Positions 7,948 to 41,442 are shown, counted from the stretch's first letter. The stretch is DNA of 64,000 nucleotides from a virus (IMGVR_UViG_2974794945_000001:229273-293272); one strand, 5' to 3'. Notes: generated by a model from the sequence alone, not told the origin. Made by a program: numbers and translations.

Positions 7948-7974
7948 AATCTCAGATCTATATTACTATCTTGA
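7948..7974 (+). promoter_or_regulatory. promoter-like box aatctcagatCTATATTACtatcttga
   Basis: 27-nt sequence identical to 27719..27745; 29 nt upstream of ATG 8003. Confidence 0.5.
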
Positions 7975-8002: not shown

Positions 8003-8749
8003 ATGCAACAAGTTCAAACAGATACCAACATGTGCCGCGTTATGATGAATGCAATGATCCAATGGATGATTGATACCAACATGGCTCAACGTATTCACGT
8101 AGTAACTGACGCAACCATGTTTGACGTGGGTATCTTGAAAAACAATGTAAACGGTTTGTATCAAATCGTACTGAACATTGCCGCATCGGCTGTTCGTAAT
8201 TTCTCATACAACGAACATACCTTCAGTTTTAACTGCTCCAATAATGGTGTTGACGTTCCTCTGAATGTCCCATATGAAGCAGTGTTGGGTTTCCTGATTC
8301 CTACCGCTGAAGGTTACACTTCTTTCTTCCCTATTCCAAACATGGAACGGGAATTGCTTGCTCTTCAAAAGACGCAAAACATGTTGCAAGAACTGGATCA
8401 ATTGGATCTGGGTGATGATGCTCCGTCAATGGCGCAGTTGAATGAACTCATGCGTGGTGTAGGGGTTAATGAACCGGCCAAACCAGTTGAGTCTTCCCCA
8501 TACGCGGTACATGGTCTTAACACAAATAGCGGTGAAGACGACACTAACACCCACGCTAATTCTTTGCCCACCAATGTTGAACTCATGCGTCGTAAACCAT
8601 TCACTGAACGTCCGGTGGCAAAAGTTGAAAAAGAAGCCCCACGACCATTGTTGGATTTTGGTCCAGTTGGCGGTGTAGTGTTTCAATCTAAACGTCCACG
8701 TCGTAAAGACGGTCCGAACCTGACCCTTATCCAAGGCGGAAAGAAATGA
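8003..8749 (+). CDS. hypothetical protein (248 aa)
   Basis: ORF after promoter box. Confidence 0.6.
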   Translation: MQQVQTDTNMCRVMMNAMIQWMIDTNMAQRIHVVTDATMFDVGILKNNVNGLYQIVLNIAASAVRNFSYNEHTFSFNCSNNGVDVPLNVPYEAVLGFLIPTAEGYTSFFPIPNMERELLALQKTQNMLQELDQLDLGDDAPSMAQLNELMRGVGVNEPAKPVESSPYAVHGLNTNSGEDDTNTHANSLPTNVELMRRKPFTERPVAKVEKEAPRPLLDFGPVGGVVFQSKRPRRKDGPNLTLIQGGKK

Positions 8750-27718: not shown

Positions 27719-27745
27719 AATCTCAGATCTATATTACTATCTTGA
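27719..27745 (+). promoter_or_regulatory. promoter-like box (27-nt exact copy of 7948..7974)
   Basis: aatctcagatCTATATTACtatcttga. Confidence 0.5.
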
Positions 27746-29658: not shown

Positions 29659-29722
29659 TCCAAACAGCATTAAATTGGAACTTAAACCAGAACCCGAACA
29701 CAGCGTGGATGTACACGTATGA
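29534..29722 (+). CDS. possible small protein (62 aa), overlaps previous in another frame
   Basis: ORF. Confidence 0.3.
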   Translation: MKKNPYPESLSFEEILASVAGGALVVTTKEFEKKFPDLKTTDPNSIKLELKPEPEHSVDVHV

Positions 29723-30003
29723 GCAATGCAAATGCCAACATGTTGGCAATTCGTGGAAAGATGGTAGAAGATCTGGTTGAAATGAATCAGAACGTTCAAG
29801 AAGTCTTGGATAACAAAGACCTTGGGTTTACCATTGAGCAGTCGGTAGCAGTTAAAAAAGCAATAGAAGAAACGACCTATGAAACTTTGCGTGTAATTGA
29901 TGCAAGAGCGCAAATCTTTCCATCAGGTCATAACTTAGGTGAGATGCCATTCTTTGATGAAGGTGAACTTACCATTGCTTATATAAAAGCCATTAACACT
30001 TGA
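29719..30003 (+). CDS. INS/INT-tail family small protein, member A (ends ..AYIKAINT)
   Basis: ORF; conserved C-terminal aromatic-x3-I-N-T followed by stop. Confidence 0.55.
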   Translation: MSNANANMLAIRGKMVEDLVEMNQNVQEVLDNKDLGFTIEQSVAVKKAIEETTYETLRVIDARAQIFPSGHNLGEMPFFDEGELTIAYIKAINT

Positions 30004-30019
30004 CACTTAGGAAGCAGTA

Positions 30020-30304
30020 ATGGGGAATAGCGTAGTAGATAATAGTTTTACCCAAGAGCGCCTTGACGAAATGGCGCAATCGGTTACTGAAGCCAACGAA
30101 GCTAAGCAGATTGAAATTCTGGACAGTCTTGTAGGTATTCGCATTGAAGCGCAAGCAATGACATTGGAGCAAGGTGTCATTCATGCAATCACTGAAACTG
30201 CACGTGTTTATGAAAATGCGTTCTGTTTAGAAGTAACTGCTAATGGGTGCGCCACTGAATTTATGGGCGCTGCAGATCGTTTTGTGGAAGAAATCAACTC
30301 GTGA
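30020..30304 (+). CDS. INS/INT-tail family member B (ends ..RFVEEINS)
   Basis: ORF; C-terminal motif. Confidence 0.55.
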   Translation: MGNSVVDNSFTQERLDEMAQSVTEANEAKQIEILDSLVGIRIEAQAMTLEQGVIHAITETARVYENAFCLEVTANGCATEFMGAADRFVEEINS

Positions 30305-30534
30305 GAAATGACATCAGCGATGCCTCAGTAGATCTAGTCACAGACCACTTGATGGAATGGACTGGTAATTTGGACAAGAATAGTGTTGCAGCAGTAATCG
30401 TAGGAGTTGAGAAAACCCTCGATGCTCTTGCGCTAGCTATGATTATCCCGCTGAACTTCAAAGAACGTCTTACGAGTGCAATGTCACGTCGGAGCACCAA
30501 GCCTGCTCCAATTCTTAGTCTTACCCAAGACTAA
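30301..30534 (+). CDS. hypothetical protein (77 aa)
   Basis: ORF. Confidence 0.45.
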   Translation: MRNDISDASVDLVTDHLMEWTGNLDKNSVAAVIVGVEKTLDALALAMIIPLNFKERLTSAMSRRSTKPAPILSLTQD

Positions 30535-30607
30535 AGAAATACTCCACCATGCAATAACATACGTGACCAATCCGGTGCGTATTACTAATTCAAAAAGGAA
30601 CACAGCA

Positions 30608-30844
30608 ATGAACGAAGTAAACACAATCAGCGTAGATGAATCCCGCCTGCAACTGGTAAGCGTCATCAATGACGTCCGTGCCGATGCTGTTAAGCTGGAC
30701 ACTGCTGCTGCTGTTGACTACGCCATTCAAGGCACCCTGGCTGCTGCTGCAACTGCAATCACCGTTACTGGTGTTGATGCCCCAGTGCTGGAAGATTTCG
30801 CCAAACAAATCGCTGCTACCTGGGTTGAAACCGTCAACTCGTAA
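30608..30844 (+). CDS. INS/INT-tail family member C (ends ..TWVETVNS)
   Basis: Internal ATG 30608 with aaaggaa RBS; Ala-rich. Confidence 0.5.
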   Translation: MNEVNTISVDESRLQLVSVINDVRADAVKLDTAAAVDYAIQGTLAAAATAITVTGVDAPVLEDFAKQIAATWVETVNS

Positions 30845-30917
30845 TCCATTGCCGGTAACCATTGGTGGCTAAGACAAAATAAAAGCCACCAATGGCCTTG
30901 CTCAAAGGTTAGTATAA

Positions 30918-31193
30918 ATGTCTGTTAGCCTAAAAGAATCTGGACTTCTTGATCAATTGATTTTTGATCGGGATGAGATTGTTTGCTGCACATTGAAAGA
31001 TCTGGAAGATGACTACACCAAAGAAAAGGTGACGGCTGCTCTGGATGAAGTTTACAATCGCACAGTAGGTAATACTCTGGCGACGTTAAACAAGAATGGT
31101 TTTTATACAATCGCTGATGCCATTGCTGGTACTATTGGCGATGTGGTAAGCCAAGATTCCCATGACGAATGGATTAACGCAATTAACACGTAA
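30918..31193 (+). CDS. INS/INT-tail family member D (ends ..EWINAINT)
   Basis: ORF. Confidence 0.55.
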   Translation: MSVSLKESGLLDQLIFDRDEIVCCTLKDLEDDYTKEKVTAALDEVYNRTVGNTLATLNKNGFYTIADAIAGTIGDVVSQDSHDEWINAINT

Positions 31194-31202
31194 GGAAAGT
31201 AG

Positions 31203-31547
31203 ATGTTCCCTGTATATTGGCAAGGTAGTGTCATTGGTGCAATCATTGGTTTGATTGTGTTGGCGGTATTCGCTTATTGGTTGATCCGTACCAAAGCTGA
31301 ATCACTTGGTTTTCTTACCAAGCGCACCCGTTGGATCACAGTTGTTTTACTTCCCCTCATTTGGGTACTTTCGTTTGTTAACGTGGGTATTCATCAGACT
31401 CAAGGCGATCGTGTTCGTTTTGATCAGGCCGGTCAATTGACCGAGAAGTCTACACCTGTTGTACGCTCCAGTGCTTCCCCTGAATCAGCACGTCAAGCTG
31501 CCGCTGAAACGCGGAAAGAAATTGACGCTGGTAACCTGAACAAGTAA
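31203..31547 (+). CDS. membrane protein (114 aa, two TM)
   Basis: Hydrophobic N-terminal half. Confidence 0.5.
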   Translation: MFPVYWQGSVIGAIIGLIVLAVFAYWLIRTKAESLGFLTKRTRWITVVLLPLIWVLSFVNVGIHQTQGDRVRFDQAGQLTEKSTPVVRSSASPESARQAAAETRKEIDAGNLNK

Positions 31548-31592
31548 TTCACCGCTACACCAAACAGAATTGAATTCAATAAGGAAAGATGC

Positions 31593-32456
31593 ATGAAACT
31601 GTTGTCCATGATTAAAACTGCTGCACTTGCAATGGTTGCTGTAGTGGCTCTGCAAGGTTGCTCGTTTGAAGTTATTCCACCTGCCTTTAAAGGTAAGGTC
31701 CTGACTACTTCTGGTTACAATCCAGAAATCCTGGAGCCGGGTAAAGAAACCCTGTTTGGTCGTGACGAACTGGTTCTTCTGGAAACCGGTACCCGCACCG
31801 TAGCGGAAACCATTACCGTTAAAATGGAAGACAAACTGGACCTCACTTTTGATGTCCGCTTCCGTACTCGCATTGGCGGTAACGAGAAAGTCCTGAACGC
31901 AATGTTCAATGACATTCAAGTTCAAAACCGTATGGTTACTCTGCAACAAGTCTACGGCGTGTATGGCCTGGACGTAGTGCAATCAGTAGCTCGTTCCGTT
32001 GTAGGTAAGTACAAGACCGAAGACGTCGGTGCTAACTTTGATAACATCACCAAAGACCTGGCTGAACGTCTGACCAAAGCAATGGTGAATTCGCCCCTGG
32101 AAGTATCAAACGTTACCTTGGGTAATCTGAAATATCCTGATGTTATTACCATTGCAATTGAAAAGCAATCGGAACGTCGTCTGGCTATTGAAACAGAAAC
32201 CAACCAGCAGGCAATTGAAACCACCAAGCGTACCAACATGTTGGCTTTGGCACAATTGGATCGCGATATCGAACTGACTCGCGCTAAAACCCTGCGTGAC
32301 TCTAACGCTATCACTGCTGATGGCCTGAGCCCAATGCTGCTTGCTTACAAAGCACTGGACGTTCAGCAAGATATGGCTAAGAACAATGCCGCTGTATTCG
32401 TGCCTTACGAGGCTATGGGTAGCAGCGGTTTGTCGAACCGCATCTTTAACAAGTAA
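31593..32456 (+). CDS. SPFH/band-7 (prohibitin/HflK-like) domain lipoprotein
   Basis: Lipoprotein signal MKLLSMIKTAALAMVAVVALQGC (lipobox LQGC). SPFH core and coiled-coil tail (..QQAIETTKRTNMLALAQLDRDIELTRAKTLRD..AAVFVP). Confidence 0.6.
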   Translation: MKLLSMIKTAALAMVAVVALQGCSFEVIPPAFKGKVLTTSGYNPEILEPGKETLFGRDELVLLETGTRTVAETITVKMEDKLDLTFDVRFRTRIGGNEKVLNAMFNDIQVQNRMVTLQQVYGVYGLDVVQSVARSVVGKYKTEDVGANFDNITKDLAERLTKAMVNSPLEVSNVTLGNLKYPDVITIAIEKQSERRLAIETETNQQAIETTKRTNMLALAQLDRDIELTRAKTLRDSNAITADGLSPMLLAYKALDVQQDMAKNNAAVFVPYEAMGSSGLSNRIFNK

Positions 32457-32507
32457 TGCCTGATCTGATCGAGATGTCCGATAGCTTGAAAAAAAGCTAT
32501 CGGTATA

Positions 32508-32816
32508 TTGGCTGACCGTAGGCAGCAAGAAGAACATGACCGTGTAACTAATCGCAACCTTTTTATGGCGGTGGTGGTTGAAGGGTTAATTGAAAAAGGT
32601 AACACTGGTACTTTCTTTGAAGATAATCCGGAAGCAGCAACTGCTCACCGAGTAGGTCTGCGGGAAGGTGCAGCTGTAGTTATGAAAACAATTGATCGGT
32701 TAGACATGTCTGTCCATTCTACAGAAGACCATTGTATTAACCTTACCGTCGATGATGGTGATACTTATTGCAGTGTTAGTCTTGCAGAAGCCTTCGCGGC
32801 ATCGATTAACTCGTAA
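32508..32816 (+). CDS. INS/INT-tail family member E (ends ..AFAASINS); start may be ATG 32565
   Basis: ORF. Confidence 0.5.
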   Translation: MADRRQQEEHDRVTNRNLFMAVVVEGLIEKGNTGTFFEDNPEAATAHRVGLREGAAVVMKTIDRLDMSVHSTEDHCINLTVDDGDTYCSVSLAEAFAASINS

Positions 32817-32823
32817 ACAAACG

Positions 32824-32861
32824 GCCTCTCTTCGGAGAGGCTTTTTGATGTTTTCTTTTTT
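32824..32861 (+). terminator. rho-independent terminator
   Basis: gcctctc-ttcg-gagaggc + tttttgatgttttcttttttg. Confidence 0.7.
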
Positions 32862-32872
32862 GTGGGGTTGTA

Positions 32873-33106
32873 ATGGTTACAGATCCAGATAAATTTTTTG
32901 GTGGACTAGTTGAATACTTGGATGATAACTCAGCTGGTGAAGCGGGTACACTTACCCAGCTTATTGAAGGGTCACGATTGACCATTGGTTATTTTAGTCA
33001 CTTTGCTAAAACCGGTGAATCATTGACTATGGAAAAAGCAGACGACATAAAAGAAGATGTAATGTTAAAAGCTTTTGAAAAACATGTTGATTTGCATTAT
33101 GGTTGA
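32873..33106 (+). CDS. hypothetical protein (77 aa)
   Basis: ORF. Confidence 0.5.
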   Translation: MVTDPDKFFGGLVEYLDDNSAGEAGTLTQLIEGSRLTIGYFSHFAKTGESLTMEKADDIKEDVMLKAFEKHVDLHYG

Positions 33107-33395
33107 TTATCAAAGATTCTTTCATGATCTGATAATTGAACAATGTGGTCCGTCATATGCCCAAAACAATCCTACCGAGTTTCACCAAGGAATGGCATTT
33201 GGTATGGCTACAATTACTCCGACTGTCATTACACAAACATTACAAATAGCTAATGAACACGGCTTATTAAAAGAAGGCGTATATGAAGCTTGGCACGAGT
33301 ATTATTACAATACTGTTTCTGAAGAGAACCCTAGTCTGGAAGATTTCCGAAAAGAATTAATACGGCGTCGATCTGAAGAAGATCTTGATGCTTAA
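33099..33395 (+). CDS. hypothetical protein (98 aa from ATG 33099)
   Basis: ORF; 8-nt overlap with previous stop. Confidence 0.5.
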   Translation: MVDYQRFFHDLIIEQCGPSYAQNNPTEFHQGMAFGMATITPTVITQTLQIANEHGLLKEGVYEAWHEYYYNTVSEENPSLEDFRKELIRRRSEEDLDA

Positions 33396-33450
33396 CCGGT
33401 ATTAAAAAACGCTGCTGCATTCTGTATGTATCAATACCCGGAACACTGTC

Positions 33451-33558
33451 ATGAAACTCAAGCTTATAGAATTCATCTATGGTTACCGTGCCCCTTTGGG
33501 TATGGCTGTAATAGGTGGGTTTTACATTCTCTCTGTTAATATCGCTGGCCTTAACTAA
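33451..33558 (+). CDS. candidate small membrane peptide (35 aa)
   Basis: MKLKLIEFIYGYRAPLGMAVIGGFYILSVNIAGLN; below the ORF-track cutoff. Confidence 0.3.
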   Translation: MKLKLIEFIYGYRAPLGMAVIGGFYILSVNIAGLN

Positions 33559-33570
33559 CAAGGATTACCG

Positions 33571-34029
33571 ATGCATTCGTCCACCGCTTTGACTCTCGCT
33601 GCAATCGTTCTCGTTCTATTTCTAGCCTACCGCACATGGTCTAGTCTTATCCCGGCAGCAGCTGGTGGATTAAACGAATGGATCGATCAAGATTTTCCCG
33701 AAATCGTGCACACCCCTAAGCCTACATGGCTAACGGGGTTCCGTTACAAACGACATGGTATTGATGCTATTGCTAAACTAGATGTACCCATCTGTTTGGA
33801 ATATGAACAATCAGGTAATCTAGGTCGGTTTTCTATTGTTGATTCGTTTGCGCGAGCTACGGTTGCTACTGACGGGAACGATCGTTCTCATAAGAAAGAC
33901 CTAGTGGCTTACAATTGTGGTTTGGACCTGGTTCAATATACCGGTGGACAAATTGCAGTCAGTGTGGTTTACAACCGTATTTGCATTACGGAAGTTGAAC
34001 CAATTATTGAGGAATCTGCCTGTGAGTAG
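33571..34029 (+). CDS. membrane-anchored protein (152 aa)
   Basis: N-terminal TM LTLAAIVLVLFLAY. Confidence 0.5.
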   Translation: MHSSTALTLAAIVLVLFLAYRTWSSLIPAAAGGLNEWIDQDFPEIVHTPKPTWLTGFRYKRHGIDAIAKLDVPICLEYEQSGNLGRFSIVDSFARATVATDGNDRSHKKDLVAYNCGLDLVQYTGGQIAVSVVYNRICITEVEPIIEESACE

Positions 34030-34372
34030 AAAAGTACCCACCAAACAAGAACTTGAAGAAGCTTATGCTAAGGTAGCCGAAATTGAAGCTGAGTTAGTTC
34101 AAGAAGCAGCCGATGCTCGCATTCTGCTCTTTACCGAAATGCAATGTCAAGTTAATGATCGCGCTATTCCTACCTTTCGTAAAGGTGCAACCATGTCCCA
34201 AGCATTCCGTATGGGCATTGATGCCGGTATTGAAGTTGCTTTGGATAGCATGGATCGTCGAGGTATTACTTTGATTGATGGCGATGATCGTTTACTAAAC
34301 GTAGCTTTCGCACATGAAGGTCCTGATCTGTTGCCCATGAATGAATTGTGGGCATCTTACATTAATAGCTGA
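34022..34372 (+). CDS. INS/INT-tail family member F (ends ..ELWASYINS); GTG start
   Basis: GTG 34022 overlaps the upstream stop by 8 nt. Confidence 0.5.
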   Translation: MSRKVPTKQELEEAYAKVAEIEAELVQEAADARILLFTEMQCQVNDRAIPTFRKGATMSQAFRMGIDAGIEVALDSMDRRGITLIDGDDRLLNVAFAHEGPDLLPMNELWASYINS

Positions 34373-34379
34373 GGTAGTT

Positions 34380-34688
34380 ATGGGTCAAGGACTATCTGCA
34401 GCAAATGTAGTAACAGATGACATGTACTTAGCACAAGATGCTAAATGCAATCAGGAAAATTTCTTTGGTCTTTTAACGGATACATTGGCTGGCATTAAAG
34501 CCGTAGCTTCGGAGGATCAATTAGCTGGAATAATTTGTGGTGCACGGATGGTGTTAGGTGCCATTGAAGATTTGGACTTTGAGTTAATAAATCGCAAAGA
34601 TCAAACGCCATTGAATCCTAAACACGAATACATGGATTTTGATTTAGTAGTAGCTTGGGACAATTATGTTTCCGAGATAAACACCTGA
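34380..34688 (+). CDS. INS/INT-tail family member G (ends ..WDNYVSEINT)
   Basis: ATG 34380 with gagg RBS; clearly homologous to member H. Confidence 0.55.
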   Translation: MGQGLSAANVVTDDMYLAQDAKCNQENFFGLLTDTLAGIKAVASEDQLAGIICGARMVLGAIEDLDFELINRKDQTPLNPKHEYMDFDLVVAWDNYVSEINT

Positions 34689-34695
34689 GGCAATA

Positions 34696-35064
34696 ATGAA
34701 CGACCTAGCTGGCGCATTTGAAAGAAACAAACTTCGCAACTTCCAAGCTAGTTCTAAACTAGAAGGCATTGACTTGATAAAAGATATTGATCCAGCTGTC
34801 CTTCAGATTGCAGGTACTCAAATTTCTCAAGGTTTGTTTGTCCAACATATTGAAGATCGAATAAACAGCTTAGTTGAACTTGGCACTGGTGCAGGATCAA
34901 TTGAATGTGTTCGAACCGGTGTACGGCTTGTATTGGACACCATCGATGAATGCAATATGTTATTGTTAGATGAAGCCAACGAACCGATCAACCCACCTCA
35001 TGAAACAGTCGATTTTAGTTTAGTGGCCTATTGGGATATCCATTGCGCTGACATTAATAGTTAA
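34696..35064 (+). CDS. INS/INT-tail family member H (ends ..WDIHCADINS)
   Basis: ORF. Confidence 0.55.
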   Translation: MNDLAGAFERNKLRNFQASSKLEGIDLIKDIDPAVLQIAGTQISQGLFVQHIEDRINSLVELGTGAGSIECVRTGVRLVLDTIDECNMLLLDEANEPINPPHETVDFSLVAYWDIHCADINS

Positions 35065-35126: not shown

Positions 35127-35687
35127 ATGGCAATTCTGAATAAGCAAGATGCAATCGCTGCACGCGTTGCTACTGACATCTCCCCTGTGGAAGCCGCAAT
35201 CAATGATTACCTGACTTCTCAGCGTGTTATTGATTATCTCACCAACGTAGAAATTGCTAACCCATCTGTACGTGTAAACGTTGATGGTCAAGTACTGACT
35301 AAAGCTGCACTTGATGCAGTCAAAGCTTCGGTTGAAGCCGCTGGTTGGAAATCGGTTGAAGTCATCCAAGAAGCTAAGCGTGTAGTTGTTGCTTTCTCTG
35401 TTGAAGAGAAAATCGTTACTCCACCTGAGCCGGATGTATATGTTGCTACTGTAGCCCCTGGCTCAGCAAGCATCATTGTTGGTGCAACTGCAAAGTTCAC
35501 CGCAACTGTAACTAAAAATGGTCAAGCATACACTGCTACGCCTACCTTTAGTTCTGCTACCCCTGGCGTTGCCACTGTAGCTGCTGATGGCACCGTAACT
35601 GGTGTTGCTGCTGGTACTTCGGTTATCACCATTGCAGAAGCTGGTAAGTACAGCAAGACTGTTACCGTCACTGTTACTGCTGCTTAA
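35127..35687 (+). CDS. protein with C-terminal bacterial Ig-like (Big_2) repeats
   Basis: T/A/V-rich beta-strand repeats TATVTKNGQAYTATPTFSSATPGVATVAADGTVTGVAAGTSVITI. Confidence 0.55.
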   Translation: MAILNKQDAIAARVATDISPVEAAINDYLTSQRVIDYLTNVEIANPSVRVNVDGQVLTKAALDAVKASVEAAGWKSVEVIQEAKRVVVAFSVEEKIVTPPEPDVYVATVAPGSASIIVGATAKFTATVTKNGQAYTATPTFSSATPGVATVAADGTVTGVAAGTSVITIAEAGKYSKTVTVTVTAA

Positions 35688-35752: not shown

Positions 35753-35775
35753 AAAAGCCTATATTACTTATTGGA
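35753..35775 (+). promoter_or_regulatory. promoter-like box aaagcCTATATTACttatt
   Basis: CTATATTAC motif. Confidence 0.4.
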
Positions 35776-40807: not shown

Positions 40808-41092
40808 ATGTTTAGTAAACTTATCGGTTTGGCTGTACATGGCATTGCTGCTTCTAAAGTAGAGCCAGGAATGATTCTTACAGCGGCACGCGATATTTTT
40901 CAGACTATCATTGATCGCAATGGTAATCATCACGAAATTGCTTATGCTAACGAAGGTGACCAAATCCGTGTTGAACACTCTGATGACGTACGTCCGGGTG
41001 AACTGTTTGTATGTACTAACATCGATAACTTTGAAGAAGTTGCTTCGGTAAACCCACATGACCTTGATGATGTTTTGAAGGAATACACTTAA
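40808..41092 (+). CDS. hypothetical protein (94 aa)
   Basis: ORF; gggga RBS. Confidence 0.5.
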   Translation: MFSKLIGLAVHGIAASKVEPGMILTAARDIFQTIIDRNGNHHEIAYANEGDQIRVEHSDDVRPGELFVCTNIDNFEEVASVNPHDLDDVLKEYT

Positions 41093-41442
41093 TGCTTGAT
41101 TTTGACAATCTAAAAGAATACATTGAACAAGTCTATCGTGTTCGCATGGATCAATCTTTCTTAGAAAAAGAAGCTCCTGCGTTAACGTATTTGAAGCTTG
41201 TTCGTGTATTGAGTTTTCTGCGCATTCAGCCAGTTGGCATGACAGCAGAAGAAATTTTTGCTGATGCTGTTCGTGAAGAACGCAATTGGGGTGGCAACAG
41301 TCCATCGCCAGAAACCCGCACGGTATTGCTTTATCAATTGGCTGATCTTCACGAGATCATTGAACTCCTCATTCGCAAATCGGAAGTAAAGAAAAATGAC
41401 TCTTTCAGCGCAGAGCTCTGGAGCAACGACATTAACAGCTAA
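41092..41442 (+). CDS. INS/INT-tail family member I (ends ..AELWSNDINS)
   Basis: ORF; same C-terminal motif as members A-H. Confidence 0.5.
   Translation: MLDFDNLKEYIEQVYRVRMDQSFLEKEAPALTYLKLVRVLSFLRIQPVGMTAEEIFADAVREERNWGGNSPSPETRTVLLYQLADLHEIIELLIRKSEVKKNDSFSAELWSNDINS

What the first reader, a model, noticed from the sequence alone, without database searches (positions are those of the whole stretch)
29719..35064. Nine-member paralogous family of small proteins with an invariant C-terminal [WFY]-x(2-4)-[IV]-N-[ST]-stop tail
Eight ORFs within 5.4 kb and a ninth at 41092..41442 end in near-identical tails. Starts are 29719, 30020, 30608, 30918, 32508, 34022, 34380 and 34696. Tails are AYIKAINT, RFVEEINS, TWVETVNS, EWINAINT, AFAASINS, ELWASYINS, WDNYVSEINT, WDIHCADINS and ELWSNDINS. 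The last 12-15 nt are conserved at DNA level too (ATTAAC/ATCAAC-nC-GT-stop). Members G and H are clearly homologous over their whole length (..INRKDQTPLNPKHEYMDFDLVVAW versus ..DEANEPINPPHETVDFSLVAYW); the others are divergent. All are about 80-120 aa, acidic and helix-rich. Such a local expansion of a small-protein family in a phage early region is typical of diversifying host-interaction or anti-defense factors. I do not recognise this family.
Basis: seen in the sequence. Interest (0 to 1): 0.8.

Follow-up and report, generated by a model that had tools for sequence, protein, structure and literature searches.

The report
Shared C-terminal tag on jumbo-phage early proteins
A nucleus-forming jumbo phage of Pseudomonas gives at least eleven small acidic early proteins the same seven-residue C-terminal ending, and related phages use their own genome-specific version of it, which suggests an undescribed peptide tag read by one common partner.

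Summary
The window is Pseudomonas phage Psa21, a nucleus-forming jumbo phage. Nine + strand genes in the window end in [WFY]-x3-[IV]-N-[ST]-stop. Two more genes elsewhere in the genome, gp251 and gp276, end in INS, but gp251 lacks the aromatic and gp276 has it one residue further from the end. That is 10-11 observed against 0.44 expected (P about 5e-11).

The tail is kept in every orthologue found in six related phages or contigs, while the protein bodies fall to 41-69% identity. All six Ser codons, three Ile codons and all three stops are used, so selection acts on the peptide, not on a DNA site.

"One nine-member family" is only partly supported. E-F-G-H and B-C are demonstrably related. A, D and I are linked only marginally. 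gp251 belongs to the unrelated phiKZ gp186 family.

The key new result is that other Pseudomonas chimalliviruses carry genome-specific versions of the tail:
- PS119XW: mostly VNT.
- 201phi2-1: VSN on at least five proteins.
- phiKZ gp186: VNS.

The gp186 homologue always carries its own genome's version.

Best reading (inferred, not shown): a C-terminal docking tag recognised by one co-evolving partner. An early SspB-like ClpX adaptor in the window is a candidate. No family annotation or paper describing this tail was found.

The parts
29719..30003 (+). Member A (gp339, 94 aa, pI 4.5), tail ..AYIKAINT
   Evidence: Twelve homologues all end Y-x3-I-N-[ST]. A 4-residue indel lies just before the Tyr, but the Tyr-to-stop spacing is fixed. 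AF2 pLDDT 73.7: helices 4-32, 39-63 and 81-93, the last carrying the tail.
30020..30304 (+). Member B (gp340, 94 aa), tail ..RFVEEINS
   Evidence: Five orthologues end [FY]-x3-[IV]NS. Reciprocal HMM link to the C family.
30563..30844 (+). Member C (gp342), tail ..TWVETVNS. The start is uncertain (30563 annotated, 30608 also possible).
   Evidence: Orthologues carry very different N-terminal extensions, from 77 to 248 aa. In RVTF4 the extension includes a YhfG-like module.
30918..31193 (+). Member D (gp343, 91 aa), tail ..EWINAINT
   Evidence: No significant link to the other members.
32508..32816 (+). Member E (gp346, 102 aa, TTG start), tail ..AFAASINS
   Evidence: Joined to F, G and H by hhalign (78%) and by the G/H HMM (E = 0.0067, best decoy 0.66). 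No homologue of E by sequence was found in the phage collection.
34022..34372 (+). Member F (gp350, 116 aa), tail ..ELWASYINS
   Evidence: In the E-F-G-H superfamily.
34380..34688 (+). Member G (gp351, 102 aa), tail ..WDNYVSEINT
   Evidence: Foldseek TM 0.79 to the H model.
34696..35064 (+). Member H (gp352, 122 aa), tail ..WDIHCADINS. Residues 8-27 (window 34717-34776) form a YhfG/FicA-like motif, FQASSKLEG.
   Evidence: Pfam YhfG 25.3 bits against a cut-off of 22.6. Fourteen other G/H homologues (besides G and H themselves), plus five further representatives from an exhaustive search, all end [IV]N[ST] at the last residue. AF2 pLDDT 72.5: helices 4-20, 33-62, 65-85 and 109-121.
41092..41442 (+). 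Member I (gp367, 116 aa), tail ..ELWSNDINS
   Evidence: Four orthologues end [WY]-x3-INS. The body is not linked to any other member.
27730..27737 (+). phiKZ-type early-promoter motif TATATTAC with a conserved AT-rich upstream context, at the head of the transcription unit holding A-H
   Evidence: Seven sites in the window, all on the + strand, against 2.2 expected on both strands. The motif is listed as the phiKZ and 201phi2-1 promoter in PMC7058600.
35760..35767 (+). The next early-promoter motif, at the head of the unit holding member I
32823..32842 (+). Terminator-like hairpin (GGCCTCTC-TTCG-GAGAGGCT followed by T-run) 7 nt after the stop of E
8003..8749 (+). SspB-domain protein (248 aa) ending ..NLTLIQGGKK. 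Proposed only as a candidate reader of the tail. This link is inference, not a result.
   Evidence: Pfam SspB E = 6.2e-10, 39.7 bits against a cut-off of 27. Homologue of phiKZ gp232 and 201phi2-1 gp347. An early-promoter motif lies at 7959.

Best explanation
The tail is a short C-terminal recognition peptide. It is the end of an amphipathic helix with an aromatic at -7 (or -6), Ile/Val at -3, then Asn-Ser/Thr and the free carboxylate.

It is carried by several families of small, acidic, early-expressed proteins of Pseudomonas nucleus-forming jumbo phages. These proteins share a common plan: a long helical hairpin, a linker, and a C-terminal helix. Their N-terminal parts vary and can be swapped, and one of them is a FicA-like Fic-inhibitor motif.

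The tail most likely docks all of these proteins onto one common partner that co-evolves with it. That would explain why every tail in a genome carries the same variant: INS in Psa21, VNT in PS119XW, VSN in 201phi2-1.

Shown here:
- the tail exists and is strongly enriched;
- selection acts at the peptide level;
- its distance to the C-terminus is fixed;
- it occurs on bodies that are not detectably related;
- it varies in concert between genomes;
- it lies in early-promoter-bounded units.

Inferred: that it works in trans on a shared partner.

Not known: the partner and the outcome. The candidates, in my order of preference, are the phage's own early SspB-like ClpX adaptor (timed turnover or delivery to ClpXP), a groove on the family members themselves (hetero-oligomers), or a component of the phage nucleus.
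For: - Enrichment: 10-11 tails against 0.44 expected in Psa21. Forty-six tails in Psa21 plus five relatives have N at -2 in 46/46, I/V at -3 in 46/46, S/T at -1 in 46/46, and W/Y/F/H at -7 in 44/46.
- Peptide-level selection: synonymous codons and stop codons vary freely.
- Conservation: the motif positions are 67-100% identical within orthologue groups, whereas the bodies are 41-69% identical.
- Anchoring to the C-terminus: no tail-bearing homologue has an extension. All 20 distinct G/H homologues match through to their last residue. The A family has a 4-residue indel just upstream of Tyr(-7) but none after it.
- Portability: the bodies fall into at least two unrelated-looking superfamilies plus singletons. 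gp251 belongs to the phiKZ gp186 family, phrog_16459.
- The fold does not need the tail: tail-less or altered homologues of the E-H body exist. L013 8214-8483 ends ..EELDDHF and L015 4740-5018 ends ..VING+EATE.
- Concerted genome-specific variants:
  - PS119XW has six tails around its SPFH gene, [YHL][FYW]xx[VI]N[TSNQ], and its gp186 homologue ends ..LFEEVNT.
  - 201phi2-1 has five proteins ending ΦΦxxVSN. VSN is the commonest C-terminal tripeptide there: 4 of 176 ORFs against 0.11 expected, P = 6e-6, with differing codons.
  - phiKZ gp186 ends ..FFEDVNS.
- Timing: early-promoter motifs bracket the genes. phiKZ186 is an early transcript whose knock-down strongly reduces plaques (10.1101/2024.07.31.605949).
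Against: - No partner has been identified and no binding has been tested. I could not run any complex prediction.
- AlphaFold places the tail inside a helix of moderate confidence (pLDDT about 72-81). Together with the hydrophobic stripe at -10, -7, -6 and -3, this is also what a helix packed against its own hairpin would look like.
- Asn is a common helix C-cap residue.
- The concerted-variation argument rests on three genomes plus single proteins from five others.
- gp251 and gp276 deviate from the -7 spacing. gp251 has Ile at -6 where its close homologues have Phe, and gp276 has Trp at -8.
- phiKZ has an SspB-like protein but only one tail in the 132 kb scanned.
- An Erwinia relative with an SspB-like gene shows no tails in the 18.8 kb examined.
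Confidence: 0.5

Rival explanations
1. Purely structural. All members are extremely diverged paralogues of one three-helix fold, and the tail is simply the best-conserved core helix with an Asn C-cap. No trans partner reads it.
For: - A and H have the same predicted topology, with the tail inside the last helix.
- A against G/H gives hhalign 49%, P = 1.7e-4, colinear from helix 2 to the end.
- By eye, a recurrent small-xxx-small motif in helix 2 is seen across members, including PS119XW.
- The genes are tandemly arranged, and the proteins are similar in size and acidity.
Against: - It does not explain why tails switch together (INS, VNT, VSN) in different genomes, with different codons.
- It does not explain why the unrelated gp186 family carries the genome's own variant.
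- Homologues of the E-H body exist without the tail.
- Ordinary families do not fix the exact position of the stop codon over this degree of divergence.
Confidence: 0.22
2. Degradation or delivery tag. The tail is bound by the phage's early SspB-like adaptor, which hands the tagged proteins, or whatever they hold, to host ClpXP. This would limit them to early infection or destroy their targets. It is a specific version of the best explanation.
For: - An SspB-domain protein lies in the window (8003-8749, Pfam 6.2e-10) behind an early-promoter motif. Its C-terminus ..NLTLIQGGKK resembles that of phiKZ gp232..KLTVIKGGKK. From my own knowledge, both resemble the ClpX-binding LRVVK end of E. coli SspB.
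- Homologues are present in phiKZ and 201phi2-1.
- The SspB-like protein of phage RAY is cytoplasmic (10.1101/2023.02.24.529968).
- Bacterial SspB reads a C-terminal tag (established knowledge).
Against: - The tail does not resemble the ssrA tag and lacks its LAA-COOH end for ClpX.
- The tail is helical in the models, whereas SspB binds extended peptides.
- The co-occurrence of tails with SspB-like genes is not exclusive.
- Nothing was tested.
Confidence: 0.15
3. Compartment address. The tail targets the proteins to the phage nucleus shell, the import machinery or the early infection vesicle.
For: - Psa21 encodes chimallin and PhuZ.
- All phages in which the tail was found are Pseudomonas phiKZ-like jumbo phages. 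Chimallin was seen directly only in Psa21 and phiKZ, in the annotation tables.
- A terminal peptide shared by unrelated proteins is how cargo is addressed in other compartments (established knowledge on PTS1 and encapsulin cargo peptides).
Against: - A 2025 review states that import into the phage nucleus depends on surface residues of the folded cargo, not on a terminal signal (PMC12908238).
- The chimallin and PhuZ C-termini do not resemble the tail.
- No localisation data exist for any member.
Confidence: 0.08
4. A nucleic-acid element (recombination site, RNA signal or termination context) overlapping the 3' ends of the genes, or a chance resemblance.
Against: - Six Ser codons, three Ile codons, two Asn codons and three stop codons are used interchangeably.
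- The sequence after the stop is unrelated between genes.
- The probability of chance is about 5e-11.
Confidence: 0.01

Closest known systems
phiKZ gp186 family (phrog_16459; 201phi2-1 gp283, PhiPA3 gp222)
   Same: Psa21 gp251 is a member (E = 1.7e-30). The family ends in the same kind of tail (phiKZ ..FFEDVNS). phiKZ186 is an early transcript needed for normal plaque formation.
   Different: Its body is not detectably related in sequence to the nine window proteins. No function is known for it, and no paper found here mentions its C-terminus.
ssrA tag with the SspB adaptor (ClpXP delivery)
   Same: A short peptide at the extreme C-terminus that is portable between proteins and read by an adaptor. 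An SspB-domain gene is present in the same phage.
   Different: The sequence is unrelated to AANDENYALAA and has no LAA-COOH. The tail is genetically encoded rather than added by tmRNA. Binding was not tested.
Encapsulin cargo-loading peptides and PTS1-type C-terminal targeting signals
   Same: One short C-terminal peptide shared by otherwise unrelated proteins of one system.
   Different: No compartment or receptor has been linked to this tail. The motif is different, and it appears to be part of a helix rather than a flexible extension.
YhfG/FicA antitoxins of class I Fic toxins (applies only to the N-terminus of member H)
   Same: The Pfam YhfG match is above the curated cut-off, and the inhibitory motif [ST]xxxE[GN] is present as SSKLEG.
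   Different: It is fused to a tail-bearing body. No Fic gene is found in the phage. Orthologues have Asp in place of the inhibitory Glu.

Membership tests
Single paralogous family of all nine window proteins | Significant sequence or profile similarity linking every member | tested here: not met
   blastp finds only G-H (8e-11) and E-F (0.002). hhalign links E-F-G-H at 59-99.9% (45-99.9% with the tail removed), and the other pairs at 24% or less. In a decoy-controlled HMM iteration, E-F-G-H is solid, B and C hit each other reciprocally, and A, D and I are at or near decoy level.
Single paralogous family of all nine window proteins | Common fold | tested here: inconclusive
Tail motif Φ-x3-[IV]-N-[ST]-COOH | Located at the exact C-terminus, enriched over chance, and conserved in orthologues | tested here: met
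Repeated DNA element at gene 3' ends | Nucleotide conservation beyond what the peptide requires | tested here: not met
   Codons and stop codons vary freely.
Pfam PF10832 YhfG / FicA antitoxin (member H, residues 8-27) | Score above the Pfam gathering cut-off | tested here: met
   25.3 bits against 22.6, E = 1.4e-5. Orthologues are below the cut-off at 20.0 and 18.2 bits.
Pfam PF10832 YhfG / FicA antitoxin (member H, residues 8-27) | Inhibitory motif [ST]xxxE[GN] (from established knowledge of Fic regulation) | tested here: met
   SSKLEG in Psa21 H. In L008 it is SSKLDG and in RVTF4 SSALDG, that is, Glu replaced by Asp.
Pfam PF10832 YhfG / FicA antitoxin (member H, residues 8-27) | Cognate Fic toxin gene next to it or in the same genome | tested here: not met
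   A six-frame scan of Psa21 with a relaxed form of the Fic active-site motif HxFx(D/E)GNGRxxR finds no match. A host Fic was not examined.
phiKZ gp186 family, phrog_16459 (gp251 only, outside the window) | Profile match over the whole length | tested here: met
   E = 1.7e-30, profile positions 5-128 of 136. tblastn finds it in 68 Pseudomonas jumbo-phage records.
ssrA-like ClpXP degron | C-terminal LAA-COOH or a related non-polar end recognised by ClpX | tested here: not met
   The tails end in N-S, N-T or S-N.
ssrA-like ClpXP degron | Binding to an SspB-type adaptor | not testable with these tools
   An SspB-domain gene is present, but no complex prediction or assay was available.
PDZ or tail-specific-protease C-terminal ligands | Hydrophobic last residue | tested here: not met
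   The last residue is Ser, Thr, Asn or Gln.
Compartment cargo peptides (encapsulin or PTS1 type) | Demonstrated receptor or shell that binds the peptide | not testable with these tools
   Only the sharing of one C-terminal peptide among bodies that are not detectably related is shown.

The most novel reading that the evidence does not exclude
Pseudomonas nucleus-forming phages run a private, genome-specific C-terminal 'address tag' system. A seven-residue ending, written on a changing set of early proteins (including phiKZ gp186, whose knock-down strongly reduces plaque formation), is read by one phage-encoded receptor. The receptor could be, for example, the SspB-like adaptor feeding host ClpXP, or a nucleus or vesicle component. 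The tag would set the timing, place or fate of these proteins. The tag and its reader co-evolve, so each phage lineage has its own code.
Probability: 0.25. Interest if true: 0.85.

Novelty: new variant of a known kind. Interest (0 to 1): 0.72.

Why it matters
Most early genes of phiKZ-like jumbo phages are small orphans with no handle for study. A shared terminal peptide that changes in concert between genomes gives a simple handle. It groups a dozen orphans per genome into one functional set. It ties them to phiKZ gp186, whose knock-down cripples phiKZ. It also predicts a single partner that could be fished out with a 10-residue peptide.

If the partner is the phage SspB-like adaptor, this would be a virus-encoded tag-and-adaptor system that programmes turnover of its own early proteome through a host protease. 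If the partner belongs to the phage nucleus or the early vesicle, it would be the first linear sorting signal in these compartmentalised infections, where current work reports none.

There is a practical consequence too. C-terminal GFP fusions, the standard localisation tool in this field, would mask the tag.

Tried and rejected
- **Family libraries.** Pfam and PHROGs on all nine window members gave nothing, apart from YhfG on the N-terminus of H.
- **PDB sequence search with H.** Only chance helical matches.
- **Foldseek against BFVD with the A model.** It hit only itself.
- **Mimicry of chimallin or PhuZ C-termini.** Neither resembles the tail.
- **Link to the SPFH lipoprotein and membrane-protein pair inside the cluster.** The pair occurs without tails in Erwinia phage RisingSun and in 88-kb PAK_P3-like phages. 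The SPFH protein also has a lipoprotein signal, so it lies on the other side of the membrane.
- **Fic toxin encoded by Psa21.** No active-site motif was found.
- **DNA-level motif.** Rejected on codon usage.
- **Literature.** Searches for the tail, for gp186 and for terminal signals in chimalliviruses found no description of it.

Full report
**What the window is.** The window is identical to Pseudomonas phage Psa21 (NC_062581.1, 305,260 bp). Window position 1 corresponds to genome position 229273. Psa21 encodes a PhuZ tubulin and a nuclear shell protein, so it is a nucleus-forming (phiKZ-like) jumbo phage. The region of the finding is a long run of small + strand genes, all annotated 'hypothetical'.

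- Elsewhere in the window's six frames the pattern appears only on four ORFs of 9, 9, 13 and 79 codons, none of them an annotated gene.
- I rebuilt the whole genome from annotated stretches and found two more genes with the ending: gp251 (..DEIANINS) and gp276 (..NWDINKINS).
- In a crude set of 396 genes, 10 end this way against 0.44 expected (P = 4.6e-11). INS and INT are the two commonest C-terminal tripeptides in the genome.
- Counted from the C-terminus, the aromatic residue sits at -7 in eight of the nine window members.
- All eleven proteins are acidic, with pI 4.05-4.95.

**Peptide or DNA?** Peptide. Within Psa21 the final Ser is TCG, AGC, AGT or TCT, Thr is ACT, ACG or ACC, and Ile is ATT, ATC or ATA. 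The stops are TAA or TGA. Across orthologues all six Ser codons and TAG occur as well.

**Conservation in relatives.**
- A viral contig (L008), phage RVTF4 (L012) and three metagenomic contigs (L013, L015, L016) carry the same syntenic cluster, with 6-10 tail-bearing genes each.
- Pooling 46 tails gives N at -2 in 46/46, I/V at -3 in 46/46, S (40) or T (6) at -1, W/Y/F/H at -7 in 44/46, and D/E at -9 in 31/46.
- Within orthologue groups the four motif positions are 67-100% identical, while the bodies are 41-69% identical.
- Besides G and H themselves, 14 G/H homologues came from the 5.8-billion-protein search and five further representatives from the exhaustive HMMER search. All end [IV]N[ST] at the very last residue, and the family is confined to this phage clade.
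- The twelve A-family sequences show a 4-residue indel immediately before Tyr(-7), but none between Tyr and the stop. The constraint is therefore measured from the C-terminus.

**One family or several?** Only partly one.
- Pairwise blastp links G-H (8e-11) and, weakly, E-F.
- Family profiles link E-F-G-H. This link survives removal of the last nine residues. No other pair exceeds 24%.
- I ran a local iterative HMM search over 1,728 ORFs, using minus-strand ORFs as decoys. It makes E-F-G-H solid and adds two extra paralogues in L013. It also adds one PS119XW protein and two homologues whose tail is lost or altered: L013 8214-8483 ends ..EELDDHF, and L015 4740-5018 ends ..VING plus four more residues.
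- B and C find each other reciprocally (4.8e-4 and 6.9e-3). A, D, I and gp276 stay near decoy level.
- With larger alignments, A against G/H reaches 49% probability (P = 1.7e-4), colinear from the second helix to the end.
- AlphaFold models of H (pLDDT 72.5) and A (73.7) have the same plan: two long helices, a poorly defined linker, and a 13-residue C-terminal helix containing the tail.
- Fold searches give nothing specific.
- gp251 is different. It belongs to phrog_16459, the phiKZ gp186 family.

So the tail sits on at least two demonstrable superfamilies, on several unlinked proteins, and on one unrelated family.

**The tail outside this clade.** This is the main new result.
- phiKZ gp186 ends ..FFEDVNS. 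In the 132 kb of phiKZ that I scanned it is the only such protein.
- In PS119XW (Pawinskivirus), six of 45 genes around the SPFH gene end ..DYFKLVNS..TYFESVNT..YHYDRVNT..SLFEGVNT..RYFKHINQ and ..SYWATVNN. Its gp186 homologue ends ..LFEEVNT.
- In 201phi2-1, five proteins end ..LFEDVSN..FFSEVSN..YWNQVSN..YFEEVSN and ..LWEAVSN. VSN is the commonest C-terminal tripeptide in the 100 kb scanned (4 of 176 ORFs, 0.11 expected, P = 6e-6), with different Val and Ser codons.
- In the 201phi2-1-like phage Viktualia, a gp276 homologue next to the gp186 homologue ends ..YYDMVST.
- The gp186 homologues of PhiPA3, Phabio and Noxifer end ISN, ISS and INN.

Each genome thus has its own variant, used by several different proteins. 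The gp186 homologue follows that variant in the three genomes where this could be checked.

**Context.**
- The phiKZ and 201phi2-1 promoter motif TATATTAC, with a conserved AT-rich upstream context, occurs seven times in the window, always on the + strand (motif as listed in PMC7058600).
- Sites at 27730 and 35760 bracket genes A-H, and the unit that starts at 35760 contains I.
- A strong hairpin terminator follows E.
- phiKZ186 is described as an early transcript whose antisense knock-down strongly reduces plaques (10.1101/2024.07.31.605949).
- The early timing of the Psa21 genes is therefore inferred by analogy. It was not measured.

**How it most likely works.** The hydrophobic positions -10, -7, -6 and -3 form one face of a helix, and Asn-Ser/Thr plus the free carboxylate close it. 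Two readings fit this geometry: a helix packed in cis, or a docking helix.

I favour docking on a common partner (confidence 0.5) for four reasons:
- The tail varies in concert between genomes without codon identity, which argues for a shared reader rather than gene conversion.
- It occurs on an unrelated body (the gp186 family).
- Homologues of the E-H body can lack it.
- Its distance to the stop is fixed, whereas the sequence just upstream tolerates indels.

The partner is unknown. One candidate I noticed is an SspB-domain protein in the same window (8003-8749). Its Pfam match is E = 6.2e-10, above the cut-off, and it lies behind an early-promoter motif. It ends ..NLTLIQGGKK, like phiKZ gp232 (..KLTVIKGGKK). 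From my own knowledge this resembles the ClpX-binding end of bacterial SspB. Bacterial SspB reads a C-terminal tag, which makes this an obvious test, but nothing here shows binding. A 2025 review states that import into the phage nucleus does not use terminal signals (PMC12908238), which lowers the compartment-address reading.

**Modularity.** The N-terminus of H (residues 8-27, FERNKLRNFQASSKLEGIDL) matches Pfam YhfG, the FicA antitoxin family, above the curated cut-off. It contains the inhibitory motif as SSKLEG. The same module sits on H orthologues in L008 and L015. In RVTF4, however, it sits on the C-family protein instead (64% identity over 22 residues). C orthologues also carry unrelated N-terminal extensions of up to about 170 residues. 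Psa21 has no Fic active-site motif, so any target would be a host enzyme. This fits a picture of variable heads on a constant tail-bearing module, but it is a single example.

**Novelty.** No Pfam or PHROG family covers the nine window proteins. Searches of the paper library found no description of the tail. Shared C-terminal recognition peptides are a known kind of device, so I rate this a new variant of a known kind. The more novel reading is a phage-private tag-and-reader code, which I put at about 0.25.

**Limits.**
- Only two structure predictions were available, and no complex prediction.
- Model coordinates could not be inspected, so cis packing of the tail was not assessed.
- phiKZ, 201phi2-1 and PS119XW were scanned only in part.
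- Non-Pseudomonas chimalliviruses were barely sampled (one 18.8-kb stretch of RisingSun).

Noticed in passing
window 34717-34776 (residues 8-27 of gp352); also L012 16713-17051 and L015 6002-6385: A YhfG/FicA-like Fic-inhibitor motif (FQASSKLEG) is fused to tail-bearing proteins. It sits on the H family in Psa21, L008 and L015, but on the C family in RVTF4. Psa21 has no Fic gene, so this may be a phage inhibitor of a host Fic toxin.
   Followed up: partly
window 8003-8749 (+): An early SspB-domain protein (Pfam 6.2e-10) whose C-terminus ..NLTLIQGGKK resembles that of phiKZ gp232 and the ClpX-binding end of bacterial SspB. Homologues occur in phiKZ (gp232), 201phi2-1 (gp347) and Erwinia phage RisingSun (gp117).
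   Followed up: partly
window 2174, 4084, 7959, 21728, 27730, 35760, 51416 (+): Seven copies of the phiKZ-type promoter motif TATATTAC, all on the + strand, share an extended AT-rich upstream context (..atttaaaa.atttcaaag.TATATTAC). They probably mark the early transcription units of this arm of the genome.
   Followed up: partly
window 31203-31547 and 31593-32456 (+): A membrane protein with predicted transmembrane helices, followed by an SPFH/Band_7 lipoprotein (lipobox LQGC), lies in the middle of the cluster. The SPFH gene is conserved there in all Psa21-like relatives and in PS119XW. The SPFH gene also occurs in Erwinia and Klebsiella jumbo phages and in 88-kb PAK_P3-like phages, so it is an independent module.
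   Followed up: partly
window 35127-35687 (+): gp353 is annotated 'major head protein' in RefSeq, but it is a 186-aa protein whose only recognisable domain is an Ig-like Big_2 domain. The real major head protein is gp170. This is probably a misannotation.
   Followed up: partly
Psa21 genome 209930-210352 (gp256) and 223915-224082 (gp277), outside the window: gp256 ends ..YASSINT followed by five more residues (DYSGR). gp277, next to gp276, ends ..HASING. These may be decayed or variant tails.
   Followed up: no
L026/L027 (201phi2-1 gp308, gp369, gp376, gp378) and L024 (PS119XW gp309, 311, 312, 314, 315, 318): These are sets of small proteins in two other model jumbo phages that carry the genome-specific tail variants VSN and VN[TSNQ]. 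They are ready-made test cases in better-studied systems.
   Followed up: partly
window 30301-30534 (+), gp341: A 77-aa gene without the tail lies between B and C. Its L008 orthologue scores marginally (E 0.03-0.045) against the E-H profile, so it could be a tail-less relative.
   Followed up: no
L016 10941-11882 (-) and L012 20921-21898 (-): In RVTF4 and in one metagenomic relative, a Kelch/beta-propeller protein is inserted on the opposite strand just after the Big_2 gene. It is absent at this position in Psa21.
   Followed up: no
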